From a bacterium (lineage in GTDB: Bacteria > Patescibacteriota > Saccharimonadia > UBA4664): a stretch of DNA of 33,623 nt. The translations under genes were made by a program, and so were the position numbers. The notes beneath the pieces were generated by a model that worked only from the letters and a program-made list of their open reading frames with translations, was not told the origin of the DNA and did no database searches. How positions within the stretch are numbered: position 1 is the stretch's first letter; each line of letters begins with the position of its first letter. The stretch spans positions 1-33,623 of the forward strand of contig JAYUCF010000057.1 in NCBI GenBank assembly GCA_043740495.1, in the 5' to 3' direction. Below are positions 1 through 13,956 of the stretch, piece by piece.

Positions 1-857
1 GCCATAGCTTCGACTATGGGAAGGCCAAAGCCTTCGAATCTAGAGGCGCTGACAAGCGCGGTGGCGCTGTCGAGCATTTGAGCGTATTCTAGGTCGCTGG
101 CACCATTCCAGAACGTGACACGATCCGTAAACGGGGCGGCCAGTGTTTTGAGGGCGGCGAGACGATCGGGGGTTCCCCGGCCGGGTAGGTGGAGGTGATA
201 ATCGGGCAGGTATTGTAGCGCCCGTATGAGCAGCTCGGCGTTTTTGTAGGGAAGAAGAGTCCCCATGAAGACGAGCTCGGGCTTGATTTTTCCATGAGCT
301 TTGCCCGGTCCCAGGTTGGGTGGAGCGTTATAGACAACCTCCACCGGACGGTCTGTGAGATGATGTTTGAGAATATCTTGTTTGGTAGTTTCACTCACGG
401 TCACTAGGAGATCGGCCCGGTTGAGTATGAGTCGTTGCGGCCAGTACACGCGGTGCATGAGCCACAGGAAAAAGCTGGGGGAGGCACCCAAATAGCCGGA
501 CAAGGCCGGGTGTTTGAACTCGCTTACGTGCTTGAGGGTGTAGAGTACCAGGTCGTGCAGGGTGAAGATGAGCTTGTAGTGGCGGCCGAAGCTTCCCATG
601 ATCTGCATGGGGCTGTAGACCACATCGACGCCAAGCTTGTTTAGCCTCAACGGCAGGAGTAGCTCGCGGGGCGACAGAGGGTTGTTCACTAGGACATAAG
701 GGACGTTTTTGGGCAGCATTTCGAGCTGGCGAAGATCATAAATGAGAACAGTGACCGGCGTGAGCTTCATGAGTGCTTCGAGTAGGTTGGCGCCGAACCG
801 ACTAATACCGTCATGATGCCCTATTTTTGTCCAGCGAGAGTCAAAAATTACATTCAT
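1..857 (-). CDS. Glycosyltransferase family 4 (GT-B fold); N-terminus complete, C-terminus cut by window edge
   Basis: Not in the ORF track because it has no stop in the window. Own translation from ATG (857-855): MNVIFDSRWTKIGHHDGISRFGANLLEAL...LLVTVSETTKQDILKHH...ELVFMGTLLPYKNAELLIRAL...LVSASRFEGFGLPIVEAM. The last segment is the start of the E-x7-E motif of GT4 enzymes. Listed ORFs 89..394(-) and 435..644(+) are off-frame shadows. Confidence 0.8.
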   Translation of the reverse strand, partial: MNVIFDSRWTKIGHHDGISRFGANLLEALMKLTPVTVLIYDLRQLEMLPKNVPYVLVNNPLSPRELLLPLRLNKLGVDVVYSPMQIMGSFGRHYKLIFTLHDLVLYTLKHVSEFKHPALSGYLGASPSFFLWLMHRVYWPQRLILNRADLLVTVSETTKQDILKHHLTDRPVEVVYNAPPNLGPGKAHGKIKPELVFMGTLLPYKNAELLIRALQYLPDYHLHLPGRGTPDRLAALKTLAAPFTDRVTFWNGASDLEYAQMLDSATALVSASRFEGFGLPIVEAM

Positions 858-891
858 ATTACCAATACTCTATCATAAGTAGGATAGGGGT

Positions 892-900
892 TGGTATAAT
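892..900 (+). promoter_or_regulatory. Extended -10 promoter element TGgTATAAT for GT4 gene (leaderless configuration)
   Basis: TG at 892-893 and TATAAT at 895-900. Only 6 nt (gaagtt) separate the hexamer from ATG 907, with no Shine-Dalgarno. Confidence 0.5.
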
Positions 901-906
901 GAAGTT

Positions 907-2106
907 ATGCGTATATTAATTGCCTCCGATCTTTACTGGCCCACAATGAATGGTGTTGCCACATTTGGGCGTAATCTGGCTCAAGGCCTGGCTGAGCGTG
1001 GTCATGAAGTGGTGGTGGTAGCCCCGTCCCAGACTGGCAAGAAATATGTGGAAACGGATGGGAACTATCGGGTGATGCGCACGGCTTCGGTGGTATTTCC
1101 GTTCTATCAGAATTTGCGAGTTTCCTTGTCGCCTAATCGCGAGATAAACGAAATTACTAAAAATTTTAAGCCCGACATTATCCATCTGCAAACCCCGTTG
1201 GGAGTCGGACTTGGGGCAATTGGGGCAGCCAAGAAATATCACGTGCCGTTGGTAGCTACAAATCACTCTATGTCCGAAAATTTGATCGACAACCTCAAGC
1301 TTTTGGCGCCATTTGCACGTCAGATTGATTACATTTTGCGGCAGTACGGGAGCCGGTTTTACGGTAATGCCGACTTCGTGACGCTACCGACGGTGGCCGC
1401 AATTAGGATGCTGAACCCAGGTTCCTTTGCTAAACCGTACGTTGCTATTTCCAACGGCATAGATCTGAAGCGGTTTCATCCGGGAACAGTGGCGAAGGAG
1501 TTTTATGAGCGGTACAACATTCCAATGGATAAGCCAATCGTGATGTATCTTGGGCGGCTAGATGCGGAGAAGCATGTATCGATATTGTTGCGGGCATTAC
1601 AACATTTGGATACAAAATTACCGTACCACGCGGTGGTTGTAGGGGATGGTAATGATTTGTCTCATCTCATGGAAGTAGCGACCGATTTGGGTTTGGAAAA
1701 GCGGGTAACGTTCGTCGGAAGAATCGAAGAAGCTGATAAACCGATGATACTGCGGCTGGGAACTATTTTTGCAATGCCGTCGCCGGCGGAGCTGCAGAGT
1801 ATTTCCACGATGGAGGCCATGGCGAGCGGTATGCCGGTTGTGGCCGTGAATGCGGGGGCGTTGTACGAGCTGTGTCAGCACGAGCGTAACGGGTATTTAT
1901 TTGAAATAGATGATTATGAAATGATGGCCCGCGGTATTGGTATGTTGCTGGCTGATCGTGAGTTGGTTGAAACTATGAGCGCCCAGAGTAAGGAAATCGT
2001 GGCAAAACATGATCTTAGTGTGACCCTCGATAAATTTGAAGAATTATATGCCGGGGTGATTGCTCAGCGGGCTCCGGTAAAGTCGGAATTGTCGCAAGTA
2101 AGCTAG
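907..2106 (+). CDS. Glycosyltransferase family 4 (group 1 glycosyltransferase)
   Basis: 399 aa. N-terminus MRILIASDLYWPTMNGVATFGRNLAQGLAERGHEVVVVAPS is typical of the GT4 N-domain. The C-domain has FAMPSPAELQSISTMEAMASGMPVVA (E-x7-E region). Confidence 0.9.
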   Translation: MRILIASDLYWPTMNGVATFGRNLAQGLAERGHEVVVVAPSQTGKKYVETDGNYRVMRTASVVFPFYQNLRVSLSPNREINEITKNFKPDIIHLQTPLGVGLGAIGAAKKYHVPLVATNHSMSENLIDNLKLLAPFARQIDYILRQYGSRFYGNADFVTLPTVAAIRMLNPGSFAKPYVAISNGIDLKRFHPGTVAKEFYERYNIPMDKPIVMYLGRLDAEKHVSILLRALQHLDTKLPYHAVVVGDGNDLSHLMEVATDLGLEKRVTFVGRIEEADKPMILRLGTIFAMPSPAELQSISTMEAMASGMPVVAVNAGALYELCQHERNGYLFEIDDYEMMARGIGMLLADRELVETMSAQSKEIVAKHDLSVTLDKFEELYAGVIAQRAPVKSELSQVS

Positions 2107-2954
2107 CCGAGGAAGTCCGAGATGGCGTCGGACGCGGCGGCGGGCGTTTCGAGGTGTACAAGATGGCCGACTTTGGGAATCAAGATGAGCTCTGAACGGC
2201 TGATGGCGGCGTGGAGCTGGCGCTGAGAGCCGGCTGGGGCAATCGGATCCTGTTCGCCGGCAATGAGCAGGGTTTCTAGATGGATGCGGGCGGCATCGTC
2301 GAGAGCGGTCTTGGTGATGGAGGCGGCGAATGACTCGGCGATGGCGCGGGGGTGCTGAGCCTGATCGAGGTCGTCCAGATGGTGCTGGTACACGAGACGG
2401 CGCAATGCGGGGTCGCTGGTGCGGCTCAGCGATAGACTCATCGCTCGGTTGAAGAGGCGGCTGCCCAAAATCCACTGGCTGAAACCATCGGGGGTGTTCG
2501 TGCCCAGCCAGTAGTAGGCTTCCACGAGTTTGGTGACGGCGCCCTTGGCGCCAGTGCGGGGTGAGACAATGATCGGGTTGATTAGAATCAGTTTGGAGAA
2601 TAATTCCGGTTCTCGGGCTGCCAAATGGGCAGCCACAATGGTACCGAAGGAATGCCCCAGTAGTACCGGATGAGTTAGACCGGTGAGCTCCATGAACTGT
2701 CGGGCAAAATCGCTGTAGCCGTCGATGTCGTGGGGGCGATCGGTCATCGGCTGAGATTCGCCAAATCCGGGCAGGTCGGGGACCACAATCCGGTAACCGC
2801 TGAGGCCGGCAATGATGTACTTCAACCCTTGATGGTTACCCCGGAAGCCGTGCAGCATGAAGATGGTCTGCTGCTGGGTGGGATTATAGACCCAGTATTT
2901 CGTCTGGCTGCCGAAAATATCCAGGCTCAAGGCCTGAGAGTCTGACGGCTTCAT
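2103..2954 (-). CDS. Alpha/beta-fold hydrolase
   Basis: 283 aa. It has the HGFRGNHQG oxyanion-hole region, the nucleophile elbow GHSFGT (G-x-S-x-G) and a C-terminal GHLVHLE histidine. It converges on the GT4 gene with a 4-nt overlap. Confidence 0.85.
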   Translation of the reverse strand: MKPSDSQALSLDIFGSQTKYWVYNPTQQQTIFMLHGFRGNHQGLKYIIAGLSGYRIVVPDLPGFGESQPMTDRPHDIDGYSDFARQFMELTGLTHPVLLGHSFGTIVAAHLAAREPELFSKLILINPIIVSPRTGAKGAVTKLVEAYYWLGTNTPDGFSQWILGSRLFNRAMSLSLSRTSDPALRRLVYQHHLDDLDQAQHPRAIAESFAASITKTALDDAARIHLETLLIAGEQDPIAPAGSQRQLHAAISRSELILIPKVGHLVHLETPAAASDAISDFLG

Positions 2955-3150
2955 AGGGCGGCCAACGCGGATAGGGTGCTGCCGCTGGCGAGCCCGCCGA
3001 CATTAATCAGGTGAGCAGTTTTTTTAATGAGTTTCACGCCTTAGATTATATCACTTGGGCTAATATTCCCGGCGCAAACGCCCCGGCTACTCAACAGATT
3101 GAGAGGCCGGGGTGGTGCTATGGGACTGGACCGGGGGATAACAGGGTCAG

Positions 3151-3456
3151 TTACTGGTCGGCGGACTTGTGGTCCGATGGGTTGTCGGCCTCAGCCTCGT
3201 CGTGAAGATCGTTGTCATCGAGCTGGTCTTCGAGGTGGGGATTGGCGGAGGGCGTGATGGCCTCACCAAATCCGTCTTCTATGGCGCTCTCGGAGGGGCT
3301 CAGAGGCATCATTTCATCTTCAGACATGCCCTCCTCGGCAGTGTCCTCGGCGCCGATTCGCTCACCAAACTCGTCGAGCTCATACTCTGGTCCGTCGTAG
3401 ATACTTTCTCTCAAACCCGGGTCCATTCCCTCGTAATCAGTGAACTCCTGTTCCAT
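3151..3456 (-). CDS. Small highly acidic protein, FGERI-motif family (paralog 1)
   Basis: 101 aa, very D/E-rich. GGAGGTG Shine-Dalgarno lies 7 nt upstream of ATG 3456. It shares the motif DEFGERIGAED with ORFs at 8035..8262 and 10447..10653. Confidence 0.7.
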   Translation of the reverse strand: MEQEFTDYEGMDPGLRESIYDGPEYELDEFGERIGAEDTAEEGMSEDEMMPLSPSESAIEDGFGEAITPSANPHLEDQLDDNDLHDEAEADNPSDHKSADQ

Positions 3457-3632
3457 ACTCGCACCTCCACATTACGCTTTGAATGTTACGCCTAGCCTAG
3501 CGGTATGGCATTGTAGCCACCCCCAAAAAGCCAATGGAAATAACAGGAGTTTTTGGACATACCGTCGCTTTTTTCACAACAACACTTATGCTTCAATTAC
3601 AACATCTGAGCCGCGTATTGCAGCAGTAATAA

Positions 3633-3661
3633 TTGCGCAAACATCCCATATTTGCTATAAT
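3633..3661 (+). promoter_or_regulatory. Sigma70-type promoter of ssrA (-35 TTGCGC, 17-nt spacer, extended -10 TGcTATAAT)
   Basis: TTGCGC at 3633-3638, TG at 3653-3654, TATAAT at 3656-3661. The mature tmRNA 5' end lies 16 nt downstream, consistent with a short RNase P-processed leader. Confidence 0.6.
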
Positions 3662-3676
3662 CTGAGGGTAAATCGT

Positions 3677-4054
3677 GGGGCTGATCAGGCTCGACGTTGG
3701 GACTTTTACAAGCTATGTGCGCAGGTCGGAGGCAAACGTTAGATTCCATTAGTTAGCTTAACTGCCAACTTCATTTCGTGGGTGAAGGCTGCCTTTACGG
3801 TACCTTCATTCGCACCCGCTTACGCCTAATAACGTAAGCTATCGGCACCTGATTCCCGGTAGGGGTTCGTCGGTATCAAATCATCGGGACGCTCTTAGGG
3901 TTGGGCCTCTGCCCCTAAGCTAAGATCTGAGGATGCTCTCGTCACCGTTTGGTTTGCTCACAGGTGATGGGCTAAGACATGTAAGTAAACTAAGCCTGTA
4001 GTGCACTAGCGAGTAACCTGACGGACCGGGGTGCGATTCCCCGCAGCTCCACCA
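3677..4054 (+). ncRNA. ssrA: tmRNA (SsrA), one-piece, CCA encoded
   Basis: The 5' end GGGGCTGATCAGGCTCGACG resembles E. coli GGGGCUGAUUCUGGAUUCGACG. The 3' end has T-arm CGGGG(4027-4031)/TGCGATT/CCCCG(4039-4043) and acceptor strand CAGCTCC(4044-4050)+ACCA. The 7-bp acceptor stem includes a G3:U pair (alanine identity). The tag ORF starts at GCC 3764 (tmRNA nt 88) and ends TAATAA 3827-3832. The stops lie in the loop of hairpin GCTTACG/CGTAAGC (3818-3839), as in E. coli helix 5. Confidence 0.92.
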
Positions 4055-5558
4055 TAAGGGCATCTCTCGACAAAAGAGGTGCTTTTTTGGTGGTTGCTAA
4101 TCTGTAGAGAGGACTGATTTGGGTGGTGCTAACTTTTTTCATCGAGTCGAAGCGAATACCCGCAGGAAATAACAGTTGTTGGCACTCAGCCCTTGCTGAC
4201 TTGTCTAGGAGCCACCAATCCTCCTTCAGTTCATTCGCATATCCAAGCGCAAACTCAACGAATTCAATTAAGTCCTCCTGTAAATCGCTTTTATCTGCAA
4301 GTTTACCTTCAATCTCCGCCACCTCAGCTTTTATGGCTTGAATTTCATCCTGCAAGTCACTCTTTAAGAGTTCTGAAGCAGCAGCAAACTCCCTGAGTAA
4401 ATGAGATTTGCTTGTTCTGAGTGTGTCCAGGCGCTTAGATAGTGCAGTGGCTTCCGCTAGAGAGTATTCCTGTTCTTTGCCCCAAACAGCGGTCAAGGCA
4501 CCAATAAATTCCTTGAGTTGGGTCCCCGTATATTCAAATCGGGACAGGGTTTCTGTTAGAGCGTCATTTATCTCCTCGCGCTTGTATTGTTTACCGCAAT
4601 TTCTGCACCGATATTTTGGGTACTTACCTCCGTGCCCGTTTCCTTGAAAGGAGCCGGTAAATTTAGCGCCCTCTAAGCAGTCATGTTCAAGCAGGTTGTT
4701 CAAGGGGAACTCAGGATTATATTGTTGCCGCTTATATTGGCGAGTTTTTCTCCCATTCAAGATGGCGCAAATTGCGTTGTGTTGTTCAGGAGTTATCATT
4801 TTTTCATGCCTACCAACCTCGCAGCGTGCCTTTACTTGCCGATCCATTTGCACAATGCCGGCATAGTAGGGGTGCTTAATATACGTAAGAAACTTGTCGA
4901 TTTTCAGAGGTGCCCTGCGCTTCGTAAAATCACTTGAATTCAGTCGTTTTAGGGCCTCTGCGGGCGTTGCAAAGCCCGATGCAATATCCTGCAAAGCCGT
5001 TTGCAATGGTATGAACTCAGTTGGATGGGGGATATGCACCCCAGGCTCGTGGCCCTTCATGTACCCTGCCTTTGGCGGGAACGTGTATCTGCCTTCTCTG
5101 ATAGCTTTTTCGTGCCCCGATATAGACTTTGTTTGCCGTTCAAGGTTACTTCCTTCGGCGGCAAGGTACTTAGTGAATTTGAGCAACTTTGCTCCGAGGT
5201 CTGAAGTGTTGAGCGAAGGGTCGGAGGCGTACCAGACCTTTACCCCGAGCTGTCTAAATAGGACTTCAAAAAACGCTGCTTCATCGATTGAGCGCATAAA
5301 TCTGTCGGGCTCGTCTACTATCAGGTACTTAACGGATCTATGGAGTCTGCAGTATTCCAGCATTTGCTTTAGGTCTTTGCGGTTGACGTTAGTACCTTCT
5401 TTACTAGAAACGTCACCTGACCACCATCCGTCATCTGGTATTTCAGCGCCGAGTTCCGTGGCGGCCTTCAGAACGCTCTCTTCCTGGCGGTTTAAGCTAT
5501 TGTTGGACCTTTGTTCCGGTGTAGATACCCGGCACGCTGCTATAGCGAGTAGTTTCAT
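3990..5558 (-). CDS. Large serine recombinase (integrase of the ssrA-inserted element)
   Basis: 522 aa. N-terminal resolvase-type catalytic domain has MKLLAIAACRVSTPEQRS (catalytic Ser in RVST-x-x-Q) and VDEPDRFMRS. A recombinase domain follows, then a Zn-ribbon region (DCLEG...YRCRNCGKQY) and a long coiled coil (LQDEIQAIKAEVAEIEGKL). The 3' end overlaps the tmRNA 3' end. Confidence 0.9.
   Translation of the reverse strand: MKLLAIAACRVSTPEQRSNNSLNRQEESVLKAATELGAEIPDDGWWSGDVSSKEGTNVNRKDLKQMLEYCRLHRSVKYLIVDEPDRFMRSIDEAAFFEVLFRQLGVKVWYASDPSLNTSDLGAKLLKFTKYLAAEGSNLERQTKSISGHEKAIREGRYTFPPKAGYMKGHEPGVHIPHPTEFIPLQTALQDIASGFATPAEALKRLNSSDFTKRRAPLKIDKFLTYIKHPYYAGIVQMDRQVKARCEVGRHEKMITPEQHNAICAILNGRKTRQYKRQQYNPEFPLNNLLEHDCLEGAKFTGSFQGNGHGGKYPKYRCRNCGKQYKREEINDALTETLSRFEYTGTQLKEFIGALTAVWGKEQEYSLAEATALSKRLDTLRTSKSHLLREFAAASELLKSDLQDEIQAIKAEVAEIEGKLADKSDLQEDLIEFVEFALGYANELKEDWWLLDKSARAECQQLLFPAGIRFDSMKKVSTTQISPLYRLATTKKAPLLSRDALMVELRGIAPRSVRLLASALQA
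4060..4088 (+). terminator. Rho-independent terminator of ssrA, located inside the recombinase CDS (antisense)
   Basis: Stem GCATCTCT(4060-4067)/AGAGGTGC(4075-4082) with one G:U, loop CGACAAA, then TTTTTT 4083-4088. It begins 6 nt after the tmRNA CCA. Confidence 0.75.
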
Positions 5559-6038
5559 CTTTTGCCTTCAGAGCAGCAGTGGCAGCCCCTGGGGAACGCC
5601 GTGCGAGACGGCAACAGAGACTGCCACTGATGTTCAAAGCCGTAATATTCTCGCATGCTTGTTCCCATAGCCATTATTGCTCTATTCGTTTTTTTTCGAA
5701 AGATTTTTCTTTGATTCGTATCTCTTGTATAAGTAATTTGCCCATTCGTTCAGTTGTATTTTTGTGAGAGCCTTAGCTACGCGGGCTTGAGAGTTGTCTT
5801 CCGCATTCTTCTGTTTATAGCCGGAATCCTTACGCACGATGTCTCCACGCTATTGGTATAGCTTGGTGAGACTACCGCAAGGTATGGCTTATGCCGCTCT
5901 TGGCATCTACCTCACCCTAATGCGATTGCTCCGCAGCGCCCTTTGCAGGGGTGTACCTTGGTCGCTCTAGGGCACAGTTAATGTAACGTAATTATTATGC
6001 CCCCGCTTGATAATTACAACTTAATATAAAATGTCTGT

Positions 6039-6422
6039 ATGGGGCAAAATGAGACAATTATGATGCTAAGTTCACAACAGCGGTTGTTTATCGACTATCT
6101 GGCGGCAGGTCAAATAGATGTCGATGGAAACAAACTAACATATGAGGAATTCGCAAAGGTGCTTGGGGTAAATCGTAAGACGTTATATCGGTGGAAAGAA
6201 GAGATTCCTGGCTTCTGGGACTACGTAGCCAAACGCTCAGCCTACTTCGTAGCTAGATACGTGCCGAAAATCCATCAAGCATTGTTAGTTAGAGCGCTGA
6301 AAGGTGACGTAGGTGCTGCGAAATTATTGCTTAACCAGGCGAGCGTTCTTAGGCCGTTACCCTCCTCCAAGAATATCGGCTATCTGACCGTAACAATCGA
6401 TGAGGTACTAAATAAGGCCTAA
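6039..6422 (+). CDS. Helix-turn-helix DNA-binding protein, small-terminase/phBC6A51-like (possible regulator or directionality factor)
   Basis: 127 aa. LSSQQRLFIDYLAAG...TYEEFAKVLGVNRKTLYRWKEEIPGFWDYV is an HTH. The following ALLVRALKGDVGAAKLLLNQ resembles the helical tail of TerS-like HTH proteins. Family assignment is from memory only. Confidence 0.55.
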   Translation: MGQNETIMMLSSQQRLFIDYLAAGQIDVDGNKLTYEEFAKVLGVNRKTLYRWKEEIPGFWDYVAKRSAYFVARYVPKIHQALLVRALKGDVGAAKLLLNQASVLRPLPSSKNIGYLTVTIDEVLNKA

Positions 6423-6976
6423 AAACATGGAGTTGGGTTCTGCGCTCCAAAGGCATTTGGAAAGCACATAATGGGGGCTGGCCGAGTATAAGTCTGCTGC
6501 TGTCTCGTTCCAATAATTTCCTCAGCGGCCTTAGGCTGCAATGAGACCCAACTATCAATTTCAGTTTTACTTACTTGAATATTCCCGCGATAAGTAACTC
6601 TATAGCGGTGCATCTTAATTCCGGTCTCTGCTGTCGATGTAAAACTTGAGTAGCTTGAGTCATAAAATTGGCTGTAAGTAATAATTGGGTCGCCTGGATA
6701 TATAGTTTCCTTTTCATCGACATTTACTGAGTGCTGAATATTAAGCACTTCTTGAGCCTTGGTCCAGGTATCATTAAGTATTTTTTCGCCGTATGCACTT
6801 CTTGAGAATAAAAGCGCTACTAATATCGCTAAAACCGCTATACCGGCAGCTAAGAGGGGTTTTCGTGACCTTTTCCGCTCTATTATTTGAGTCTGTTGCC
6901 CACATTGAGCGCAGAATTTGGCATGCTTTTTTACGGTATGTCCGCACTTCGCACATTTTGTTCTTGAGAGAGGCAT
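6419..6976 (-). CDS. Zinc-ribbon / single-pass membrane protein with G5-like extracytoplasmic domain
   Basis: 185 aa. N-terminus has CAKCGHTVKKHAKFCAQCGQ (C-x2-C...C-x2-C). A basic stretch precedes TM helix LLAAGIAVLAILVALLF. The C-terminal segment HRYRVTYRGNIQVSKTEIDSWVSLQPKAAEEIIGT resembles a G5 domain. The gene is low in GC. Confidence 0.6.
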   Translation of the reverse strand: MPLSRTKCAKCGHTVKKHAKFCAQCGQQTQIIERKRSRKPLLAAGIAVLAILVALLFSRSAYGEKILNDTWTKAQEVLNIQHSVNVDEKETIYPGDPIITYSQFYDSSYSSFTSTAETGIKMHRYRVTYRGNIQVSKTEIDSWVSLQPKAAEEIIGTRQQQTYTRPAPIMCFPNAFGAQNPTPCF

Positions 6977-7110
6977 ATTATATCGTTAATGCTTTGACCA
7001 AAAGTATCTATGTAAAGCGTTGTTTTAGCAATACAAAGGCAGTTTAACTTGCGGTGTTAAAGCACTTTGAAGGCCCCCCTATAGAATCCCTTGGCTCGCG
7101 CATAGGGTAA

Positions 7111-7275
7111 GTAGGGGAAGGCAGTATCGTTGGGTGCGAATCCTCTATGTGAGTCACCAAGTAGGAAGGTGGGATTCGCTGAGAATCTGTCTTTTGTACT
7201 GCAAGTTTAGAAATGACCTCCAGCGAGCAACCTCATTGAGCAAAGGGTGCCAACTATCAACCACTTGCTCCACCA
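7111..7275 (+). repeat. Degenerate duplicate of the tmRNA 3' portion (candidate displaced native ssrA 3' end / attR side)
   Basis: Short blocks are colinear with the live tmRNA. GTAGGGG 7111 vs 3859. GTATC 7124 vs 3873. GTCACC 7153 vs 3941. AGCGAGcAACCT 7222-7233 vs AGCGAGtAACCT 4008-4019 (11/12). GGGTGC 7245 vs 4029. GCTCCACCA 7267-7275 vs 4046-4054 (9/9). In addition GGGTGCGAaTCC 7132-7143 matches the T-arm GGGTGCGAtTCC 4029-4040 at 11/12. No intact T-arm can be folded in the copy. Confidence 0.5.
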
Positions 7276-7309
7276 AAAAAGACTTTTCATCAAACGAAAA
7301 GTCTTTTTT
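7275..7309 (+). terminator. Strong (bidirectional-type) rho-independent terminator directly after the remnant CCA
   Basis: Perfect 14-bp stem AAAAAAGACTTTTC(7275-7288)/GAAAAGTCTTTTTT(7296-7309), loop ATCAAAC. Its position right after ...GCTCCACCA mirrors the terminator after the live tmRNA. Confidence 0.85.
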
Positions 7310-7372
7310 GTTTGAGTTTAGCTACAGGGATAAGCAAAGGGATTTTAATTGATAAGGTTGCGGGAGGTTATA

Positions 7373-7401
7373 TTGACAAAGTAGTAAATTTATGCCAAAA
7401 T
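7373..7401 (+). promoter_or_regulatory. Promoter: -35 TTGACA, 17-nt spacer, extended -10 TGcCAAAAT
   Basis: TTGACA at 7373-7378, TG at 7393-7394, CAAAAT at 7396-7401. It lies upstream of the 7466 CDS. Confidence 0.55.
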
Positions 7402-7465
7402 GTTTATTGACCTTGATAACTCGACACAGGTAAGCACTCACCCAACACCTACAGGGAGGCACGTC

Positions 7466-7903
7466 ATGTTCTCGAGGCAGAATACTACCTGCATACGTCC
7501 CGAAGCACTCGCAGCCGCCCGATGGTGGGGCGATCAGCTTCGCGGCCCAACTCAGCGCAATATCAGCGGTGATTCAACTACGGTTGGTGCGGAGCTCACT
7601 AAGGCCGCACCGGCGGCAGACGCTGAGCTCAACTCGCACGACGTCACCGAGGATCGCATTGTGCAGTTCGAGGCAAAGTTGGCTGAGACCATTTCAGCTC
7701 AGCTGAATATGCCTCGGGAATATGACGTGCAGGTGAGCGTAGGCTACGATCCCAACAAGACCGTGTACAAAGCCGCTCAGGACGCCGGTATACCCTCTGC
7801 GATGATATTCTTCTCCTCGAAAACCGTCATGGTCATCAGGGATGGGGAAGTCAAGGTGAGCGCGGGTTACTGTGCCAAGTTCGTAAATGTTCCTATGAGC
7901 TGA
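7466..7903 (+). CDS. Hypothetical protein (unknown function)
   Basis: The track ORF starts at 7400. I prefer the in-frame ATG 7466, which is preceded by GGGAGG (7454-7459). High GC, host-like. Sequence features: RPEALAAARWWGDQLRG...VSVGYDPNKTVYKAAQDAGIP. I recognise no family. A GC-rich nested hairpin plus T-run follows the stop (about 7921-7980). Confidence 0.6.
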   Translation: MFSRQNTTCIRPEALAAARWWGDQLRGPTQRNISGDSTTVGAELTKAAPAADAELNSHDVTEDRIVQFEAKLAETISAQLNMPREYDVQVSVGYDPNKTVYKAAQDAGIPSAMIFFSSKTVMVIRDGEVKVSAGYCAKFVNVPMS

Positions 7904-8034
7904 CCCTCCGGGTCGGCTCCGCGCCCCGCAAGGACGAATCAACACCCACCAGGGTGGAGCCTCGTTTCGGCGGGGCTTTTAGTTTGCAGAAATAACGCCC
8001 CGGAGCTGGTGCAGCGGCTAAACTCGTGGGCAGC

Positions 8035-8262
8035 TCAGGGGTTTTCTTGCTCTTTGTGACGCAAATACCATTCAGCTAAGTCGTCATCTTCGCTGTAATG
8101 TCCCTCGGAATGCGTGTCTGGATCTTTGGGAACGGCTGAGTTGCCCATGCTGTTGCGATCGATGCGCTCGCCGAATGTCTCGGCTCTTTCGACCGTTTGG
8201 GCATCACTGGCTTGGTCACCCATGTCCATATCGAGTTCTTGTTGCTGATCGTCCTTATCCAT
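8035..8262 (-). CDS. Small highly acidic protein, FGERI-motif family (paralog 2)
   Basis: 75 aa. It has AETFGERIDRNS and C-terminal DDLAEWYLRHKE, both shared with paralog 3. Confidence 0.7.
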   Translation of the reverse strand: MDKDDQQQELDMDMGDQASDAQTVERAETFGERIDRNSMGNSAVPKDPDTHSEGHYSEDDDLAEWYLRHKEQENP

Positions 8263-8378
8263 ACCCTGCCAGTATCAATGCGAATATGATAGCGGTCATA
8301 GTGCGCGGTGGCATTAGTCAATTCGCCTAAATATTCGGTAATTAGAACGGCGTATGCTGATTTGAAATGTAATGTGTC

Positions 8379-9269
8379 ATGAGTATGAAGAAGCGCAAAC
8401 TAGGTGAGCTGGAAGTTTCGGCGATGGGCCTGGGCTGTAGGGGGATGAGTGAATTTTACGGAGAGACAGATGAGGCGGAGAGCCTGCGGACGATTGATCG
8501 GGCACTGGAGCTGGGTATCAACTTCTTGGATACGGCCGATATGTATGGTCCGTTTACGAATGAGGTGCTGGTCGGGAAAGCCATTAAACATAGGCGTAAT
8601 GATGTAATTTTGGCAACGAAATTTGGTAATGTACGCACTGAAGATGGTGATTGGCTGCCATGAAACGGTAAGCCCGAATACGTAAAACAGGCTTGCGATG
8701 CCAGCTTGAAGCGGTTGGTGACCGATCACATTGATTTGTATTATCTGCACCGGGTAGATGATTCGATGCCGATCGAGGACACGGTGGGAGCGATGGCTGA
8801 GCTCGTGAAAGAAGGGAAGGTGGGCTATATCGGACTGAGCGAGGCGGCGCCGGAGACGATTCGGCGGGCGGCTAAGGTGCATACCATTACGGCGCTACAG
8901 ACGGAGTATTCGCTGTGGAGTCGTGACCCGGAGGAGGATATTTTGGCGACGGTGCGCGAGCTCGGGATTGGATTCGTGGCGTATAGCCCGCTGGGTCGGG
9001 GCTTTTTGACGGGGCACTTTAAGCAGCCGGAGGATATTCCAAAAGAAGATTATCGAAGCCGTCTACCGCGGTTTCAGGGTGAGAACTTCTACAAGAACCT
9101 AGAGTTGGTGAAGCTGTTGGAGGAGATGGCCGTTGAGAAGGGTTTGACGGTGTCGCAGCTGGCGATTGCCTGGGTAATGGGCCAAAGCCGCGATATTGTA
9201 CCGATTACTGGCACAAAGCGGTCGACGGCGGGTGACAGGTATGGGGATATGTCGAGTGTGAATCGCTAG
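8379..9269 (+). pseudogene. Aldo/keto reductase pseudogene (in-frame TGA plus internal in-frame deletion)
   Basis: ORFs 8379..8663 and 8706..9269 are in the same frame. TGA at 8661-8663 interrupts ...[40 protein letters not shown], which is otherwise a contiguous AKR sequence. After IVPITGTKR (to 9221) the usual roughly 30-35 aa (x-x-L-E-E-N...) are missing. The sequence jumps to the family-typical C-terminus [13 protein letters not shown]-stop. Confidence 0.8.
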
Positions 9270-9416
9270 AGGGGTGATTCTTGGGCGCTTATTTAACCTA
9301 GCGTGCGGTTGCGCCGGCCTCGGCGTCAAAGTAGTGCGGTCATGAGTGTGGTGATACATCGACAAACAGCAGCCGGTTATGTCCAGTCTAGTATCAAGTA
9401 CCGCATAAACGCTTTG

Positions 9417-9450
9417 CGGCCGAGGAGACGATTGTCTCCTCGGCCGTTTT
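9417..9450 (+). terminator. Orphan strong intrinsic terminator
   Basis: Perfect 13-bp stem CGGCCGAGGAGAC(9417-9429)/GTCTCCTCGGCCG(9434-9446), loop GATT, then TTTT 9447-9450. It lies 147 nt from the nearest credible ORF end. Confidence 0.7.
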
Positions 9451-9695
9451 GCCGTCGGTGGACAGGCAGTGGTTTGTAATTTTGTCCGGATACCTAGATC
9501 GGATGGGGCTCCCGCAGGAGGATGAACCATTCGTTTTGGAAGATGAGGTTGGCGGTAGGGAAGGCGGCCGCAGCGTCGGAAGCATCGCCAAACCCGTGCG
9601 GGCCGGTGGGTCTAGTGGCGCGCGCGTGGCGGTATCACTCAGAGGATGAGACTACCGGTTGTGGGCGGCCGAGTGAAGGCTTCGTGTGAAGTATT

Positions 9696-10088
9696 TCAGT
9701 CGGCGTGCGTGAAGGGGAGGCCGGATCTTGCTGATTCCAAGTAGCTCGTCTCGGGGTGGGTGAGTGCGTGGCTGGCGTGGATGTCTGCGGTGTAGCCACA
9801 GGTTTTGCACTGCCGTCTGACGGTGTTCAGACCGTCCTCGATAACGACCCGGCTGGCAAAGTAGCCTTTCGAGTAGAAGCCGATGCGCGGCTCTCGGCCA
9901 ACGTAAGGACAGGTTCGACGCTCGGCGTTGAGGACCTCGTGGGCTAGCTCATCGGTCAGGCGGAGGCGGTGAAAGCCACCAAACCTGGACTTGGACGTGC
10001 GCAACGGGGTGTAGGTACGTCCATTGCCGATTAAGGCGCACAGAGGGGACTCAGTCAATTTTCCATTGCGATATACCTTGATGTCCAA
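9696..10088 (-). CDS. Hypothetical protein (four Cys, possible Zn-binding; no family recognised)
   Basis: 130-aa ORF with protein-like composition. Notable segments are ...RTCPYVGREPRIGFYSKGYFASRVVIEDG...RQCKTCGYT. Host-like GC. Confidence 0.5.
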   Translation of the reverse strand: MDIKVYRNGKLTESPLCALIGNGRTYTPLRTSKSRFGGFHRLRLTDELAHEVLNAERRTCPYVGREPRIGFYSKGYFASRVVIEDGLNTVRRQCKTCGYTADIHASHALTHPETSYLESARSGLPFTHAD

Positions 10089-10276
10089 GGTGAACCTTTC
10101 GGTCTGGTTGAGTGGTCAGAGATGCTCAATTAACAGAGTTAAGGCTGTCGAAAAGTTATACTACTGTACGATAAATTATATCGTATGTAAATGGATTGTC
10201 GAAGAGCAAGTTTAGTCCTAGCATAAGCACACCCAACTCAACCTGGTATGATTGGGGCAATGGTTATAGGGAGTGC

Positions 10277-10444
10277 ATGATGGTGCGTTTGAGTGCAATA
10301 TCTAGTGGGCCGGTCGGTGCGCAGGCAACCTCCACCACCGCGCCGGTAATGGCGGGAGTGCCGGTGATGCTGTTTGGGATAGTATTTTTGGTGGTACTGG
10401 CGGCTTTTCTGATCTGGTACATGATTATGCGCCGGCGCCCGTAA
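10277..10444 (+). CDS. Small membrane protein (C-terminal TM helix followed by RRRP)
   Basis: The track ORF starts at 10196. I prefer in-frame ATG 10277, preceded by AGGGAG. An extended -10 TGgTATGAT sits at 10244-10252. TM segment: VPVMLFGIVFLVVLAAFLIWYMIM. Confidence 0.45.
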   Translation: MMVRLSAISSGPVGAQATSTTAPVMAGVPVMLFGIVFLVVLAAFLIWYMIMRRRP

Positions 10445-10446
10445 GT

Positions 10447-10653
10447 TTAGTTGTGGCGGTCGAGCCACTCTCCAAGCTCGTCGTGGTCACGGTAGATTAG
10501 TTCACCATATTCGTCGGTCAGCTCCTGGTTGGCACTAGTATTCTCTTTTGCATTTTCAATTCTTTCTCCGAATGTAGGCGGATCATCTATTAGTTTTGTT
10601 TCATGGACTACATGATTCCTATCGCCACGCTGATTGCTTTGATCGTCTTCCAT
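10447..10653 (-). CDS. Small highly acidic protein, FGERI-motif family (paralog 3)
   Basis: The track start 10665 is TTG. I prefer ATG 10653, with GAGGG 5 nt upstream. It has PPTFGERIENAK and C-terminal DELGEWLDRHN. It lies 27 nt downstream of the methyltransferase on the same strand. Confidence 0.7.
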   Translation of the reverse strand: MEDDQSNQRGDRNHVVHETKLIDDPPTFGERIENAKENTSANQELTDEYGELIYRDHDELGEWLDRHN

Positions 10654-10680
10654 CTCAACCCTCAACCTTATTGGAGAATC

Positions 10681-11436
10681 CTAGGGCGCGAATGGAGAAT
10701 ATGCATTGGCGGAATTGCCAACAACTTTCCGGCAAACGAAGTAGACACGGTCGGAGCGGTCGGTGGGTGGTTGGTGGTTAGAATCGAACCTTTCAAGAAC
10801 CTCGAAAGTGGTCTCAAGCTCAGCGGTGACTTGTTCGATAGGGAAGGAAGCTTCATTCACTCGCTCTTGATAGACCTGGATAGCGCCATCGGATCCGGTT
10901 TCCTGAATGGTGACGTGCCAAACAACTTCATTGGTACTGATCGGCTCGATAATCATTTCCATAGTTCCGGTTTTGAAGTTTTGGACGAAACTCGGGACGG
11001 CCGTGAGGGCCTGCAAACGCTCTACGGTGTCCATATCGAAGATGAACAATCCATTTGAACACAGATGTTTTTTAGCACTGGCAAAGAGTTTTTGCCAATC
11101 AGAATAATCAATAAGATGGTTCAGCGTATCAAAAACGCAAATTATGATGTCGAACTGCTGATGCAGTTCAAAGCCGGCGATGGTACCTTGATGAAGGGTA
11201 GCGGCTGGGAGCTTGTGTTGTGCTATTTGCAACATATTGGCGGATTGGTCGATGCCGTGAAGTTCAAATTTGTCGCTAAAACCGGCCATGATACTACCGG
11301 TGCCGCAACCAAGCTCGAGCAGGGAGGCGGCGGCGGGGTGGTGGCGGTTGATGGCAGCGGAAACGATGCTAATAACGTCGCCGCGATCGCCCATGGCGGT
11401 GTCGTAGAAAGGTGCAAATTGGTCGTAGTGAGACAT
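10681..11436 (-). CDS. Class I SAM-dependent methyltransferase
   Basis: Motif I is LLELGCGTGS. The N-terminus MSHYDQFAPFYD is typical for the family. I chose start ATG 11436 rather than 11490 because the longer form overlaps the divergent MFS gene. TATAAT (11448-11443 on the minus strand) lies 6 nt upstream of that ATG. Confidence 0.85.
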   Translation of the reverse strand: MSHYDQFAPFYDTAMGDRGDVISIVSAAINRHHPAAASLLELGCGTGSIMAGFSDKFELHGIDQSANMLQIAQHKLPAATLHQGTIAGFELHQQFDIIICVFDTLNHLIDYSDWQKLFASAKKHLCSNGLFIFDMDTVERLQALTAVPSFVQNFKTGTMEMIIEPISTNEVVWHVTIQETGSDGAIQVYQERVNEASFPIEQVTAELETTFEVLERFDSNHQPPTDRSDRVYFVCRKVVGNSANAYSPFAP

Positions 11437-11460
11437 AGGCCCATTATAGCCTCTCTGGCG

Positions 11461-11469
11461 TGCTAAAAT
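11461..11469 (+). promoter_or_regulatory. Extended -10 TGcTAAAAT, 6 nt before ATG of MFS gene (leaderless configuration)
   Basis: TG at 11461-11462, TAAAAT at 11464-11469, ATG at 11476. Confidence 0.5.
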
Positions 11470-11475
11470 CTGCTC

Positions 11476-12834
11476 ATGACACGTAAACAAGTTCTGACAT
11501 TGGCGGCCACCATCATTGGGAGCGGGCTAGTGATCCTCGACGGAGTGGTGGTGAACTTGGCCCTGCCAAAAATCGGTATCGATTTGCATGCGAGCTTCGC
11601 GGCGCTGCAATGGATTGTTGATGGTTATCTGCTGAGCTTGTCGGCCTTGATCTTGCTGGGAGGGTCGGTAGGAGATATCTTCGGACAGCGCCGGGTATAC
11701 TTCACGGGATTGGTGGGATTTGGAGCGGCATCACTGTTGTCCGGATTGGCACCTAACCAAGAAACGCTCATAGCTTTGAGGATGGTACAGGGTGTATTCG
11801 GGGCCTTGTTGGTACCGAGCGGACTGGCGATAATCAATACGAACTTTCCGCCTCAGATGCGGGCCGCCGCGATTGGGCGGTGGACGGCTTATTCGGCGAT
11901 TGTGACGGCGGCGGGACCCTTACTCGGCGGGTATCTGGTAGACGCCGGCTCGTGGAGGTTAATTTTCTTCATCAACGTACCGTTGGTACTGGTAACGTTG
12001 CTGATGGCGCGGGCCGGCATGGAGCAGCATACCGGAGATCGGAGTCGGCGGGTGGATGTCGGCGGAGCGGCTCTTGCCATGGCGGGGCTGGGCAGCTTGA
12101 CGTACGGGCTGATCGAAGGTCCGGTGACGCATTGGGCCGCGGCTGAAGTGCTGGCGATAGCGGCCGGAATAGTCCTAATGATTGGTTTCGGCTGGTACGA
12201 GCGCCGTCAGTCGGACCCGATGCTCAAGCTGGATTTATTTAAGTCGAGAAATTTTCTTGCAGCAAATATTACAACGTTTTCGATGTATGGCGGCCTCGGC
12301 GGTTTCTTGTTCGCACTGGCAATCTACCTCCAAACGACGGCCGGCTACACAACGCTGCAGGCTGGTGCGAGTTTGCTGCCGATCACGATAATTTTGTTTT
12401 TGGTGTCGGCTCGGGCGGGTGAGTGGGCTGGGGCTCACGGACCGAGAAGGCTGATGACAGTCGGACCACTGCTGGCCGGTACCGGAATCGGGATGCTGGC
12501 GTTCGTGGGCAAGTCGGCGCCGTATTTCACGCGCGTGCTGCCGGGAATCGCGGTGTTTGCGCTGGGGCTGGCGCTGACGGTGGCACCGTTGACGGCAACC
12601 GTAATGGGCTCAGTAGACGAGCAGGACTCGGGGATAGCCTCGGGGGTGAACAACGCCGTATCGCGGGTGGCGGGATTATTTGTTATTGGATTGCTAGGTT
12701 TGTTTGGAGCGGCGAGTTCCTACCAGTTTGCAGCTATCTTGTGTGCGTCATTGGCGGCTTTAGCCGGGGTGATATCATATTTCATGATTAACGACCGGCA
12801 GATCGTGAAAGGTGGCGTTCAGGAGCGGACGTAG
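11476..12834 (+). CDS. MFS transporter, DHA2/EmrB-QacA-like drug:H+ antiporter type
   Basis: 452 aa, polytopic. N-terminus LAATIIGSGLVILDGVVVNLALPKIGIDLHASFAALQWIVDGYLLSLSALILLGGSVGDIFGQRRVY is characteristic of 14-TMS DHA2 members. Confidence 0.85.
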   Translation: MTRKQVLTLAATIIGSGLVILDGVVVNLALPKIGIDLHASFAALQWIVDGYLLSLSALILLGGSVGDIFGQRRVYFTGLVGFGAASLLSGLAPNQETLIALRMVQGVFGALLVPSGLAIINTNFPPQMRAAAIGRWTAYSAIVTAAGPLLGGYLVDAGSWRLIFFINVPLVLVTLLMARAGMEQHTGDRSRRVDVGGAALAMAGLGSLTYGLIEGPVTHWAAAEVLAIAAGIVLMIGFGWYERRQSDPMLKLDLFKSRNFLAANITTFSMYGGLGGFLFALAIYLQTTAGYTTLQAGASLLPITIILFLVSARAGEWAGAHGPRRLMTVGPLLAGTGIGMLAFVGKSAPYFTRVLPGIAVFALGLALTVAPLTATVMGSVDEQDSGIASGVNNAVSRVAGLFVIGLLGLFGAASSYQFAAILCASLAALAGVISYFMINDRQIVKGGVQERT

Positions 12835-12846
12835 AGCCCGAGGATC

Positions 12847-12855
12847 TGATACAAT
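12847..12855 (+). promoter_or_regulatory. Extended -10 TGaTACAAT, 7 nt before ATG of FKBP gene (leaderless configuration)
   Basis: TG at 12847-12848, TACAAT at 12850-12855, ATG at 12863. Confidence 0.5.
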
Positions 12856-12862
12856 CGGCATA

Positions 12863-13522: not shown

Positions 13523-13956
13523 TGCGCAGGTTTCAGCTCTGGCTCGGTCTTGGCTTGGCAGGGGTGGTGGTCGGGGGTCTGTTTATTGCGGCTGGGGGGC
13601 TTGAACTCATAGTGAAACCGCCAGCTTCAACGCCGGTGCCAATAGCTGCAAAACAGGGAAACTCGGGTAAATATCTCTACGGCATTACAAACCTGACGAG
13701 CCAGAATAAGAAACGGGTACAATTTGACCCATCGCTACCGACGGACGATACCCTGGTAGTAAAGACCCTGAAGGCGGTGGCGAAGGACGGGTACGGGCTG
13801 GTGCTTGATGAGGAAATTCCGCCGGTGGTTGAGACGATCAACGAGATTAATTTCGTGACGTTTACGGTGGGCCGCACTAAGGTGTTGTTTGAACTGTTTC
13901 GGAATTCGAGCGGTGGGATTGGTATGGCTGATTTCTCGACGGAGCAATTACCCTAA
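13519..13956 (+). CDS. Hypothetical membrane-anchored protein
   Basis: 145 aa. Its start overlaps the FKBP stop (ATGA coupling). N-terminal TM is LWLGLGLAGVVVGGLFIAAGG. Confidence 0.55.
   Translation: MMRRFQLWLGLGLAGVVVGGLFIAAGGLELIVKPPASTPVPIAAKQGNSGKYLYGITNLTSQNKKRVQFDPSLPTDDTLVVKTLKAVAKDGYGLVLDEEIPPVVETINEINFVTFTVGRTKVLFELFRNSSGGIGMADFSTEQLP

What the first reader, a model, noticed from the sequence alone, without database searches (positions are those of the whole stretch)
3990..4088. tmRNA 3' end and its terminator are dual-coded inside the C-terminal codons of a large serine recombinase
Seen directly: the recombinase CDS (minus strand) ends with stop codon 3992-3990. Its final 65 nt (...LMVELRGIAPRSVRLLASALQA-stop) are therefore the exact reverse complement of the tmRNA helix, T-arm, acceptor strand and CCA (to 4054). 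The preceding ~11 codons (...KKAPLLSRDA) are antisense to the ssrA terminator hairpin 4060-4088. The live tmRNA still folds perfectly here: 5-bp T-stem, 7-bp acceptor stem with G3:U. Established knowledge: the ssrA 3' end is a classic island integration site, and the element supplies a replacement 3' end. That is normally done by tyrosine integrases using an identity block. A large serine recombinase, which needs no long identity, carrying a functional tmRNA 3' end plus terminator within its own ORF looks unusual to me. It would make trans-translation (smpB is at 30261-30701) dependent on element DNA.
Basis: partly seen in the sequence, partly recalled or inferred. Interest (0 to 1): 0.8.

Follow-up and report, generated by a model that had tools for sequence, protein, structure and literature searches.

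The report
Self-splitting serine integrase at tmRNA gene
A 3.2-kb mobile element has inserted at the very end of a Saccharibacteria tmRNA gene using a serine integrase whose attachment site lies inside its own gene, so insertion swaps the enzyme's tail for antisense tmRNA and gives the tmRNA gene a new terminator.

Summary
The tmRNA gene is 3677-4054(+), and a 522-aa serine recombinase ORF, 3990-5558(-), overlaps its last 65 nt.

A second assembly of the same organism (L093) lacks the element. It matches the window through 4054 and again from 7267, and it lacks exactly 3,221 bp. The whole tmRNA, including 3990-4054, is therefore native. The element supplies only the 3' flank, an intrinsic terminator at 4056-4088 embedded antisense in recombinase codons. 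A 9-bp core, GCTCCACCA, is duplicated at 4046-4054 and 7267-7275.

attP lies inside the recombinase gene. Integration detaches a conserved 37-codon tail, now stranded at 7157-7266(-), and replaces it with antisense-tmRNA codons. Circular free forms with the intact gene exist in relatives (L001, L002).

This is a family trait. Among 80 mostly Patescibacteria loci, 50 ORFs end inside a tRNA (mostly Gly) or tmRNA gene. About 46 of those 50 carry the embedded terminator, and 57 of the 80 keep a displaced tail.

The closest precedent is DsiB of the Dehalococcoides ssrA islands (2011). I rate this a new variant of a known kind, of moderate to high interest.

The parts
3677..4054 (+). Native tmRNA gene (ssrA), tag ANFISWVKAAFTVPSFAPAYA. 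It is entirely host DNA.
   Evidence: Identical in the element-free assembly L093 at 9433-9810.
4046..4054 (+). attL copy of the 9-bp core GCTCCACCA, the last 9 nt of the tmRNA (end of the acceptor strand, discriminator, CCA). The crossover must lie here.
   Evidence: The first difference from empty attB is at 4055.
3990..4045 (-). Host-derived end of the integrated recombinase ORF (..LRGIAPRSVRLLASALQA*). It is antisense tmRNA, read only because the native tail was detached.
4055..7275 (.). Integrated element of 3,221 bp (equivalently 4046-7266). GC is 45.9% against 54.6% for the rest of the window.
   Evidence: Absent from L093, which otherwise has 0 mismatches over window 1-4054 and 3 mismatches over 7267-17903. 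GC.
4056..4088 (+). Element-borne intrinsic terminator that now ends ssrA: stem 4056-4067/4075-4086 and T6 at 4083-4088. It is embedded antisense in recombinase codons KKAPLLSRDAL (P' arm of attP).
   Evidence: The same feature occurs in about 46 of 50 family members and in the free circular form L001.
3990..5558 (-). Large serine recombinase ORF as found in the integrated state (522 aa). Positions 4055-5558 are element DNA.
6039..6422 (+). Element ORF of 127 aa with an HTH (HTH_Tnp_1_2, small-terminase-like). It is a candidate regulator or directionality factor.
   Evidence: No homologue in other elements.
6419..6976 (-). Element ORF of 185 aa with an N-terminal zinc ribbon. Function unknown; treated as cargo.
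7154..7266 (-). Displaced native C-terminal tail of the recombinase (QVVDSWHPLLNEVARWRSFLNLQYKRQILSESHLPTW, stop at 7154-7156). It is in frame with the gene once the element is circularised (P arm of attP).
   Evidence: It is the only hit in the six-frame window to an HMM built from four foreign free-form tails (E 1.5e-6).
7247..7255 (+). Conserved P-arm DNA motif GTGCCAACT, starting 20 nt 5' of the core. It codes S-W-H on the other strand. It resembles GTGCGATTC in the tmRNA T-arm (4031-4039), which starts 15 nt 5' of the core.
7267..7275 (+). attR copy of the core GCTCCACCA.
   Evidence: The last difference from empty attB is at 7266.
7274..7310 (+). Original ssrA terminator, displaced 3.2 kb downstream (B' arm).
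   Evidence: (I1). It directly follows the tmRNA in L093.

Best explanation
The window shows a 3,221-bp integrative element of a Saccharimonadia (Patescibacteria) bacterium. It has inserted into the extreme 3' end of ssrA by means of its own large serine recombinase (LSR).

The element's attP lies inside the 3' part of the recombinase gene. The P' arm codes ...KKAPLLSRDAL and doubles as an antisense intrinsic terminator. The 9-bp core GCTCCACCA codes M-V-E. The P arm codes a conserved tail of about 37 residues.

Recombination with attB takes place inside the 9-bp core. attB comprises the tmRNA T-arm, the acceptor strand, the CCA and the native terminator.

The mature tmRNA sequence is unchanged by integration. 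Its native terminator is moved 3.2 kb away (7274-7310) and replaced by the element's built-in terminator (4056-4088).

The recombinase gene loses its own tail, which is left at 7157-7266. It now reads into antisense tmRNA until the first stop codon at 3990.

Shown here: the exact insertion boundaries, the native origin of 3990-4054, the terminator, the displaced tail, the LSR fold, circular free forms in relatives, and family-wide recurrence.

Inferred: the crossover dinucleotide lies in the terminal (G)CACCA. The conserved tail is needed by the free-form enzyme, so the integrated chimeric enzyme probably has altered activity or expression. That would make the split a read-out of integration state.
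For: Empty site: L093 is the same organism from another metagenome. It is identical to window 1-4054 (0 mismatches) and to 7267-17903 (3 mismatches). It lacks exactly 3,221 bp and reads ...CCCCGCA GCTCCACCA AAAAAGAC..., which is the attB I had predicted beforehand.

Displaced tail: the reconstructed 541-aa protein ends QVVDSWHPLLNEVARWRSFLNLQY.... This aligns without gaps to the tails of P0012, P0048, P0079 and P0034. An independent tail HMM hits only 7157-7321(-) in the whole window (E 1.5e-6).

Free forms: L001 (4.7 kb) and L002 (6.5 kb) carry the intact-tail gene, have no tDNA, and have exact terminal overlaps of 25 and 21 nt, so they are circular.

Same architecture in L007: the recombinase is 61% identical, it overlaps ssrA by 65 nt, a second core copy lies 4.8 kb away, and the sequence beside that copy reads in frame as a family-type tail (LVEHDLKSSHTVWAEVERWRELL by my own translation).

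Family survey: of 74 genome loci with a readable 3' end, 50 recombinase ORFs end inside an opposite-strand tDNA. These are tRNA-Gly (37, nearly all with a 23-nt overlap), tmRNA (3), and Ala, Lys, Val, Glu and Arg. About 46 of the 50 have a hairpin plus T5-7 directly after the tDNA, inside the ORF. In 57 of 80 loci a tail-coding segment lies on the same strand 1.7-7.9 kb upstream.

Core size: the identity block is only GCACCA in many tRNA-Gly elements.

LSR fold.

Foreign composition: GC is 45.9% against 54.6%.
Against: No excised circle or attP junction of this particular element was found. The exact 541-aa free-form protein is absent from the 15-billion-protein collection.

The crossover dinucleotide and any activity of either protein form are untested.

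The predicted tail helix has low confidence (pLDDT below 50).

Part of the tail's conservation (S-W-H = GTGCCAACT) could reflect a DNA-binding-site constraint rather than protein function.

The 5-bp attP/attB motif offset is clear for the tmRNA subfamily but weak for the tRNA-Gly subfamily.
Confidence: 0.85

Rival explanations
1. First reader's model. The element carries a functional replacement for the last 65 nt of the tmRNA (helix, T-arm, acceptor strand, CCA), dual-coded with the recombinase C-terminus. The crossover lies upstream of 3990.
For: The ORF does run through 3990-4054. Tyrosine-integrase islands do replace tDNA 3' ends in this way (PMC4383910).
Against: The element-free genome L093 has the identical sequence through 4054. 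The attR side (7211-7266) has no T-arm and instead encodes the family's conserved protein tail. Antisense-tDNA tails differ with the target and simply end at the first stop codon.
Confidence: 0.01
2. The anatomy is as in the best explanation, but the tail exchange is a neutral by-product. The 522-aa chimeric enzyme works like the full-length one. Placing attP in the gene is just genome compaction of a tiny element.
For: The catalytic, recombinase, zinc-ribbon and coiled-coil domains all lie upstream of the core. Replacement tails vary from 3 to about 35 residues among members, which suggests tolerance. The Dehalococcoides authors also considered a trivial explanation.
Against: The native tail (K-S-[WFL]-H..E..RWR.IL.VPYQ.YL) is among the best conserved segments in proteins only 36-55% identical overall. 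It is kept intact at attR in 57 of 80 loci. Arginine codons in the RW motif vary synonymously among the window, L001 and L007, which indicates selection at the protein level.
Confidence: 0.35
3. 'Suicidal' integration. As with archaeal SSV-type integrases, the split gene yields an enzyme that cannot excise. The integrated copy would then be a dead end unless a second, intact copy supplies enzyme.
For: The concept is documented for archaeal tyrosine integrases (PMC8371274). Some loci hold 2-3 displaced tails, which suggests tandem arrays or remnants. No circle of this element was found.
Against: Only a C-terminal tail beyond the last folded domain is removed, not a catalytic part. Genomes with and without the element differ by 3 SNPs in 14.7 kb, so movement was recent. 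Either integration or excision could explain that.
Confidence: 0.15

Closest known systems
Dehalococcoides ssrA-specific genomic islands with serine recombinase DsiB (McMurdie et al. 2011, BMC Genomics 12:287; PMC3146451)
   Same: Both integrate at the ssrA 3' end by a large serine recombinase of about 530 aa. In both, the recombinase gene always overlaps attL or ssrA at its 3' end and stops only outside the island. The authors already suggested that the gene may be fully functional only on the circularised element.
   Different: Dehalococcoides has a 20-bp direct repeat with insertion in the T-loop; here there is a 9-bp core at the extreme 3' end. Dehalococcoides has a multi-gene integration module (DsiA, ParB, Mom, tRNA-like) and 10-30-kb cargo; here there is a 3.2-kb element with no DsiA. 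The authors reported divergent C-termini and no conserved native tail or embedded terminator. Sequence relatedness to DsiB could not be tested, and no Dehalococcoides locus was among the best 80 genome hits.
Canonical phage large serine integrases (Bxb1, phiC31, A118, TP901-1)
   Same: The predicted domain architecture is the same: catalytic domain, recombinase domain, zinc ribbon and coiled coil. att identity is short. A possible 5-bp outward shift of a half-site motif in attP relative to attB matches the published LSR geometry, as I recall it from Rutherford et al. 2013.
   Different: Sequence is very remote (13-15% identity in Foldseek). There is no tblastn hit in 50,697 phage or 72,556 plasmid records. 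Only the Resolvase Pfam domain is detected. The known enzymes target protein-coding or intergenic sites and have attP outside their gene.
Archaeal SSV-type 'suicidal' tyrosine integrases (PMC8371274)
   Same: attP lies inside the integrase gene, so integration partitions the gene. The target is a tRNA gene.
   Different: These are tyrosine recombinases from archaea, and the split removes essential parts of the enzyme. [quoted passage not shown] Here it is a bacterial serine enzyme, and only a post-domain tail is detached.
Integration-dependent immunity of mycobacteriophages (Broussard et al. 2013; reviewed in PMC9262239)
   Same: attP lies within the 3' end of a coding gene and the attB overlaps a tRNA 3' end. 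Integration exchanges the protein's C-terminus and so switches its behaviour. No RDF is involved.
   Different: The split gene there is the repressor, not the integrase. The integrase is a tyrosine enzyme with a common core of about 35 bp.
Classical tDNA genomic islands (Islander/TIGER type)
   Same: The island lies between an intact tDNA and a repeat of its 3' end.
   Different: Those use tyrosine integrases with longer identity blocks that truly replace the tDNA 3' end. [quoted passage not shown] TIGER sets aside 'Serine core' proteins lacking the Recombinase Pfam domain and applies 2-5-kb size cut-offs. This family would likely be missed.

Membership tests
Large serine recombinase (serine integrase) | N-terminal resolvase-type catalytic domain with a serine nucleophile | tested here: met
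   PF00239, E 1.4e-13. R10, V11 and S12 of the RVST motif are invariant in 37 homologues.
Large serine recombinase (serine integrase) | Recombinase domain (PF07508) and zinc-ribbon domain (PF13408) detectable by sequence | tested here: not met
   Neither is listed for the window protein at E <= 10. For P0012 the hits are weak only (0.087 and 0.3), below the curated cut-offs. A few homologues carry precomputed PF07508.
Large serine recombinase (serine integrase) | Fold comprising recombinase domain, zinc ribbon and embedded coiled coil | tested here: met
   AF2 model of P0012, pLDDT 77.9: helices 183-269, strands 291-332, coiled coil 352-456. C296, C324 and C327 are invariant. Foldseek gives full-length matches to 9dxd, 9y66 and 9iu2 at E 1e-12 to 1e-15.
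Large serine recombinase (serine integrase) | Short att sites with only a short shared core around a 2-bp crossover | tested here: inconclusive
   The identity block is 9 bp here and 6-9 bp in many tRNA-Gly members, which is consistent. The crossover dinucleotide itself was not determined.
Dehalococcoides ssrA-GI / DsiB system | Serine recombinase gene overlapping attL/ssrA at its 3' end | tested here: met
   against the description.
Dehalococcoides ssrA-GI / DsiB system | Integration module with a second small serine recombinase (DsiA), ParB, Mom and an embedded tRNA-like gene | tested here: not met
   The element holds only the recombinase, an HTH ORF and a zinc-ribbon ORF. It has no tRNA or other Rfam hit.
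Dehalococcoides ssrA-GI / DsiB system | 20-bp ssrA direct repeat with insertion in the T-loop | tested here: not met
   The repeat is 9 bp and comprises the last 9 nt of the tmRNA.
Dehalococcoides ssrA-GI / DsiB system | Sequence homology of the recombinase to DsiB/CcrB | not tested
None of the 80 best genome loci is from Dehalococcoides.
Tyrosine-integrase tDNA island (Islander definition) | Tyrosine recombinase integrase on board | tested here: not met
   The only recombinase is of the serine type.
Tyrosine-integrase tDNA island (Islander definition) | attP carries a tDNA fragment that regenerates the disrupted gene | tested here: inconclusive
   Only the 9-nt core is shared. The gene is effectively not disrupted, and only its terminator is replaced.

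The most novel reading that the evidence does not exclude
The split of the recombinase gene may be a built-in directionality and state switch that needs no separate directionality factor. In this reading, only the circular form encodes the full-length enzyme with the conserved RWR..L.VPYQ tail, which would be competent for attP x attB integration. The integrated form makes a tail-swapped enzyme whose mRNA 3' end is complementary to abundant tmRNA or tRNA. It would therefore be either silenced or switched towards attL x attR excision. If so, this would be a bacterial serine-recombinase counterpart of the archaeal 'suicidal' integrases, spread across Patescibacteria and using the universal CCA end of tDNAs as its crossover.
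Probability: 0.25. Interest if true: 0.8.

Novelty: new variant of a known kind. Interest (0 to 1): 0.6.

Why it matters
- It corrects the view that serine integrases do not target tRNA or tmRNA genes. A large family, apparently undescribed in the literature I could search, does so across Patescibacteria. Its identity core is only 6-9 bp, ending at the CCA.
- Standard island finders would probably miss it. The proteins show only the Resolvase Pfam domain, and the elements are 3-9 kb.
- It is a compact example of three overlapping codes in one stretch of DNA: recombinase codons, the recombinase's own attachment site, and an antisense terminator for the target RNA gene.
- The detachable conserved tail makes a directly testable hypothesis about how directionality is controlled without a dedicated factor.
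- These minimal elements and their defined attP/attB pairs could serve as natural integration vectors for Saccharibacteria, for which genetic tools are scarce.

Tried and rejected
- The metagenome scan with the predicted attB junction returned only L090. This is an unoccupied ssrA of a different organism (different tag, 55% tmRNA identity). It is supportive but not a true empty site. The true one (L093) came from tracing the flanking host protein.
- The exact reconstructed 541-aa free-form protein is not in the protein collection, so there is no direct evidence for this element's circle.
- tblastn of the recombinase against INPHARED phages and PLSDB plasmids gave no match. IMG/VR gave only 2 contigs. 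The elements are therefore not recognisable phages or plasmids.
- The cargo ORFs (HTH, zinc ribbon) have no homologues in 90 related loci. No accessory protein cluster is shared by more than 9 of 57 elements, so no conserved RDF or replication gene was found. BLASTP may miss small, divergent proteins.
- The simple terminator scan missed the 4056-4088 hairpin, but folding shows it clearly.
- A permissive Rfam scan of the element found no RNA family.
- Literature searches for Saccharibacteria with serine recombinase and tRNA, for later work on dsiB, and for attP inside LSR genes found nothing beyond McMurdie 2011.
- I considered and rejected the idea that 7211-7275 is a decayed displaced 65-nt tmRNA end. 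It encodes the conserved tail instead.
Full report
**1. Observation.**
ARAGORN and Rfam RF00023 both place a full-length tmRNA at 3677-4054(+). The minus strand carries a 522-aa ORF at 3990-5558 with its stop at 3990-3992. Its last 65 nt are therefore the reverse complement of the tmRNA 3' end. The preceding codons, KKAPLLSRDAL, are antisense to a hairpin at 4056-4086 followed by T6 (dG -13.3 kcal/mol). The protein has a Resolvase catalytic domain. The other two LSR Pfam domains are not detected by sequence. An AlphaFold model of the homologue P0012 shows a recombinase domain, a zinc ribbon and a long coiled coil. It matches full-length cryo-EM structures of serine integrases, including Bxb1, at E 1e-12 to 1e-15.

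**2. Where the element really begins and ends.**
A second GCTCCACCA lies at 7267-7275, followed by a strong terminator hairpin. The region between the two copies has low GC, 45.9% against 54.6% for the rest. From this I predicted an attB made of window ..4045 + core + 7276...

Tracing the host protein encoded at 7400-7903 led to L093. This is an 87.6-kb scaffold from a different metagenome with the same gene order but no recombinase. L093 is identical to window 1-4054 (0 mismatches) and to window 7267-17903 (3 mismatches). It lacks exactly 3,221 bp. Its tmRNA (same tag) runs directly into AAAAAGACTTTTC...T6, exactly as predicted.

Four conclusions follow:
- The whole tmRNA, including 3990-4054, is native.
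- The element is 4055-7275 (equivalently 4046-7266).
- Strand exchange must have occurred within the 9-bp core.
- Only the 3' flank of ssrA, meaning the terminator, is element DNA.

**3. The recombinase gene spans attP.**
Joining 7266 to the core and 4055, as in a circle, extends the ORF to 541 aa with the tail QVVDSWHPLLNEVARWRSFLNLQYKRQILSESHLPTW.

Among 641 homologues, most end in antisense-tDNA peptides such as ..LMVELxGxAPxS.. or ..LVRVRGL*. A few (P0012, P0034, P0048, P0079) end in a tail that aligns without gaps to the reconstructed one, with the pattern S-W-H..E..RW..L..Y.

P0012 and P0079 sit on small contigs without any tDNA. These contigs have exact terminal overlaps of 25 and 21 nt, so they are circles of 4.7 and 6.5 kb.

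An HMM built only from those four foreign tails hits a single place in the six-frame translation of the window, 7157-7321(-), at E 1.5e-6. Integration therefore detached the native tail and left it at attR.

**4. It is a family trait.**
L007 carries a recombinase 61% identical to the window's. It shows the same 65-nt overlap with a related tmRNA and a second core copy 4.8 kb away. The sequence beside that copy reads in frame as a family-type tail (my own translation).

A scan of GTDB species genomes returned 80 loci, almost all from Saccharibacteria or other Patescibacteria. The findings across these loci are:
- Of 74 loci with a readable gene end, 50 recombinase ORFs end inside an opposite-strand tDNA. 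These are tRNA-Gly (37, nearly all with a 23-nt overlap), tmRNA (3), and tRNA-Ala, Lys, Val, Glu and Arg.
- About 46 of those 50 have a hairpin plus T5-7 immediately 3' of the tDNA, inside the recombinase ORF. This explains the conserved 'KK....' peptide. The free form L001 already carries this hairpin.
- In 57 of 80 loci a tail-coding segment (K-S-[WFL]-H.I..E..RWR.IL.VPYQ.YL) lies on the same strand 1.7-7.9 kb upstream of the gene.
- In tRNA-Gly elements the attL/attR identity is often only GCACCA. The crossover must therefore lie in the terminal discriminator-CCA region.

The P arm carries a strongly conserved DNA motif, GTG.AAACTTT (GTGCCAACT here), 20 nt 5' of the core. The tmRNA T-arm has the similar GTGCGATTC 15 nt 5' of the core. 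This 5-bp offset is what published LSR structures predict for zinc-ribbon motifs in attP versus attB. That statement rests on my recollection of Rutherford et al. 2013. The offset is suggestive only, and it is weak in the tRNA-Gly subfamily.

**5. Host and element content.**
SmpB is 83-85% identical to proteins named Candidatus Saccharimonadia or Saccharimonadales. The tmRNA tag resembles that of a Saccharibacteria MAG.

Besides the recombinase, the element has an HTH ORF of 127 aa and a zinc-ribbon ORF of 185 aa. Neither is shared with other elements. No accessory protein is common to more than 9 of 57 elements. The recombinase has no detectable relative in phage or plasmid databases and only two in IMG/VR.

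**6. Mechanism.**
The steps shown by the evidence are these. An LSR element inserts at the last nucleotides of ssrA, which leaves the mature tmRNA unchanged. It replaces the native terminator with its own antisense-embedded one. It exchanges its enzyme's tail for antisense-tmRNA codons.

The inferred steps are these. The tail is conserved at the protein level, since arginine codons in the RW motif differ synonymously among the window, L001 and L007. It should therefore matter for the free-form enzyme, and the integrated chimeric enzyme should differ in activity, stability or expression. Its mRNA 3' end is also complementary to abundant tmRNA. Whether this acts as a directionality switch, as a dead-end 'suicidal' integration, or has no effect cannot be decided from sequence.

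**7. Comparison with known systems.**
- The closest precedent is the Dehalococcoides ssrA islands. [quoted passage not shown] That system differs in repeat length (20 bp, in the T-loop), in its accessory module (DsiA, ParB, Mom), in island size, and in reporting no conserved tail or embedded terminator. Homology to DsiB could not be tested.
- Archaeal SSV-type tyrosine integrases also carry attP in their own gene. A 2021 review calls this exclusive to archaea.
- Mycobacteriophage integration-dependent immunity swaps a repressor's C-terminus by the same logic.
- Islander stated that serine integrases were not known to target tDNAs. TIGER's domain and size filters would likely skip this family.

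**8. Verdict.**
The key interpretation, that the element supplies the tmRNA 3' end, is wrong; only the terminator is supplied. What is there is a self-splitting serine integrase element, one member of a large Patescibacterial family that targets tDNAs. I classify it as a new variant of a known kind, with interest about 0.6.

Noticed in passing
L008 9460-9578 (-); similar segments in L009, L032, L044, L012, L031, L068, L052, L058, L016: A LOOT RNA (Rfam RF03000, 75 bits) lies a few hundred nt upstream of the recombinase start. nhmmer finds related sequences at about the same position in 9 further loci, all but one (L052) on the opposite strand. The window has none. LOOT RNA may be a component of a subset of these elements.
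   Followed up: partly
window 7220-7233 vs 4005-4018: CCAGCGAGCAACCT in the displaced-tail region matches CTAGCGAGTAACCT of the tmRNA at 12 of 14 positions. Its distance to the core differs by 6 nt, and it lies outside the usual LSR half-site range. It could be chance (I estimate roughly 0.03 for this region) or a relic of an older, longer identity block.
   Followed up: no
L051 (118, 3614, 5325), L020, L042, L056: Two or three displaced tail-coding segments lie upstream of a single recombinase gene. This suggests tandem arrays or remnants of earlier elements at the same tDNA, as in the Dehalococcoides ssrA arrays.
   Followed up: no
L006 10001-11689: P0034 has an intact free-form tail yet sits 567 bp from the end of a 16.7-kb contig that carries ordinary chromosomal genes and no tDNA. 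Possible explanations are the second unit of a tandem array, a mis-join, or integration elsewhere.
   Followed up: no
L091 8982-10535 and L092 (IMG/VR UViGs of 45 and 38 kb): The only two IMG/VR contigs with a family member show the same arrangement. The L091 ORF ends 23 nt inside tRNA-Gly(GCC). In L092 the tRNA-Gly starts within the last 14 nt of the matched stretch. Some larger, virus-classified elements may therefore use this integrase.
   Followed up: partly
window 5560-5626 vs L007 9934-9999: The 68 nt immediately upstream of the recombinase start codon are 79% identical between two elements whose recombinases are only 61% identical. The rest of the roughly 480-nt intergenic region is not conserved. 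This may be a leader or regulatory site.
   Followed up: no
window 1-33623: GC skew on the + strand is persistently positive (0.12-0.29) across the host DNA whatever the gene orientation, but close to zero across 3000-6000, where the element lies.
   Followed up: no
window 7348, 8136, 10283: These are the only three differences between the element-bearing genome and the element-free genome (L093) over 14.7 kb compared. Gain or loss of the element was therefore very recent within one population.
   Followed up: yes
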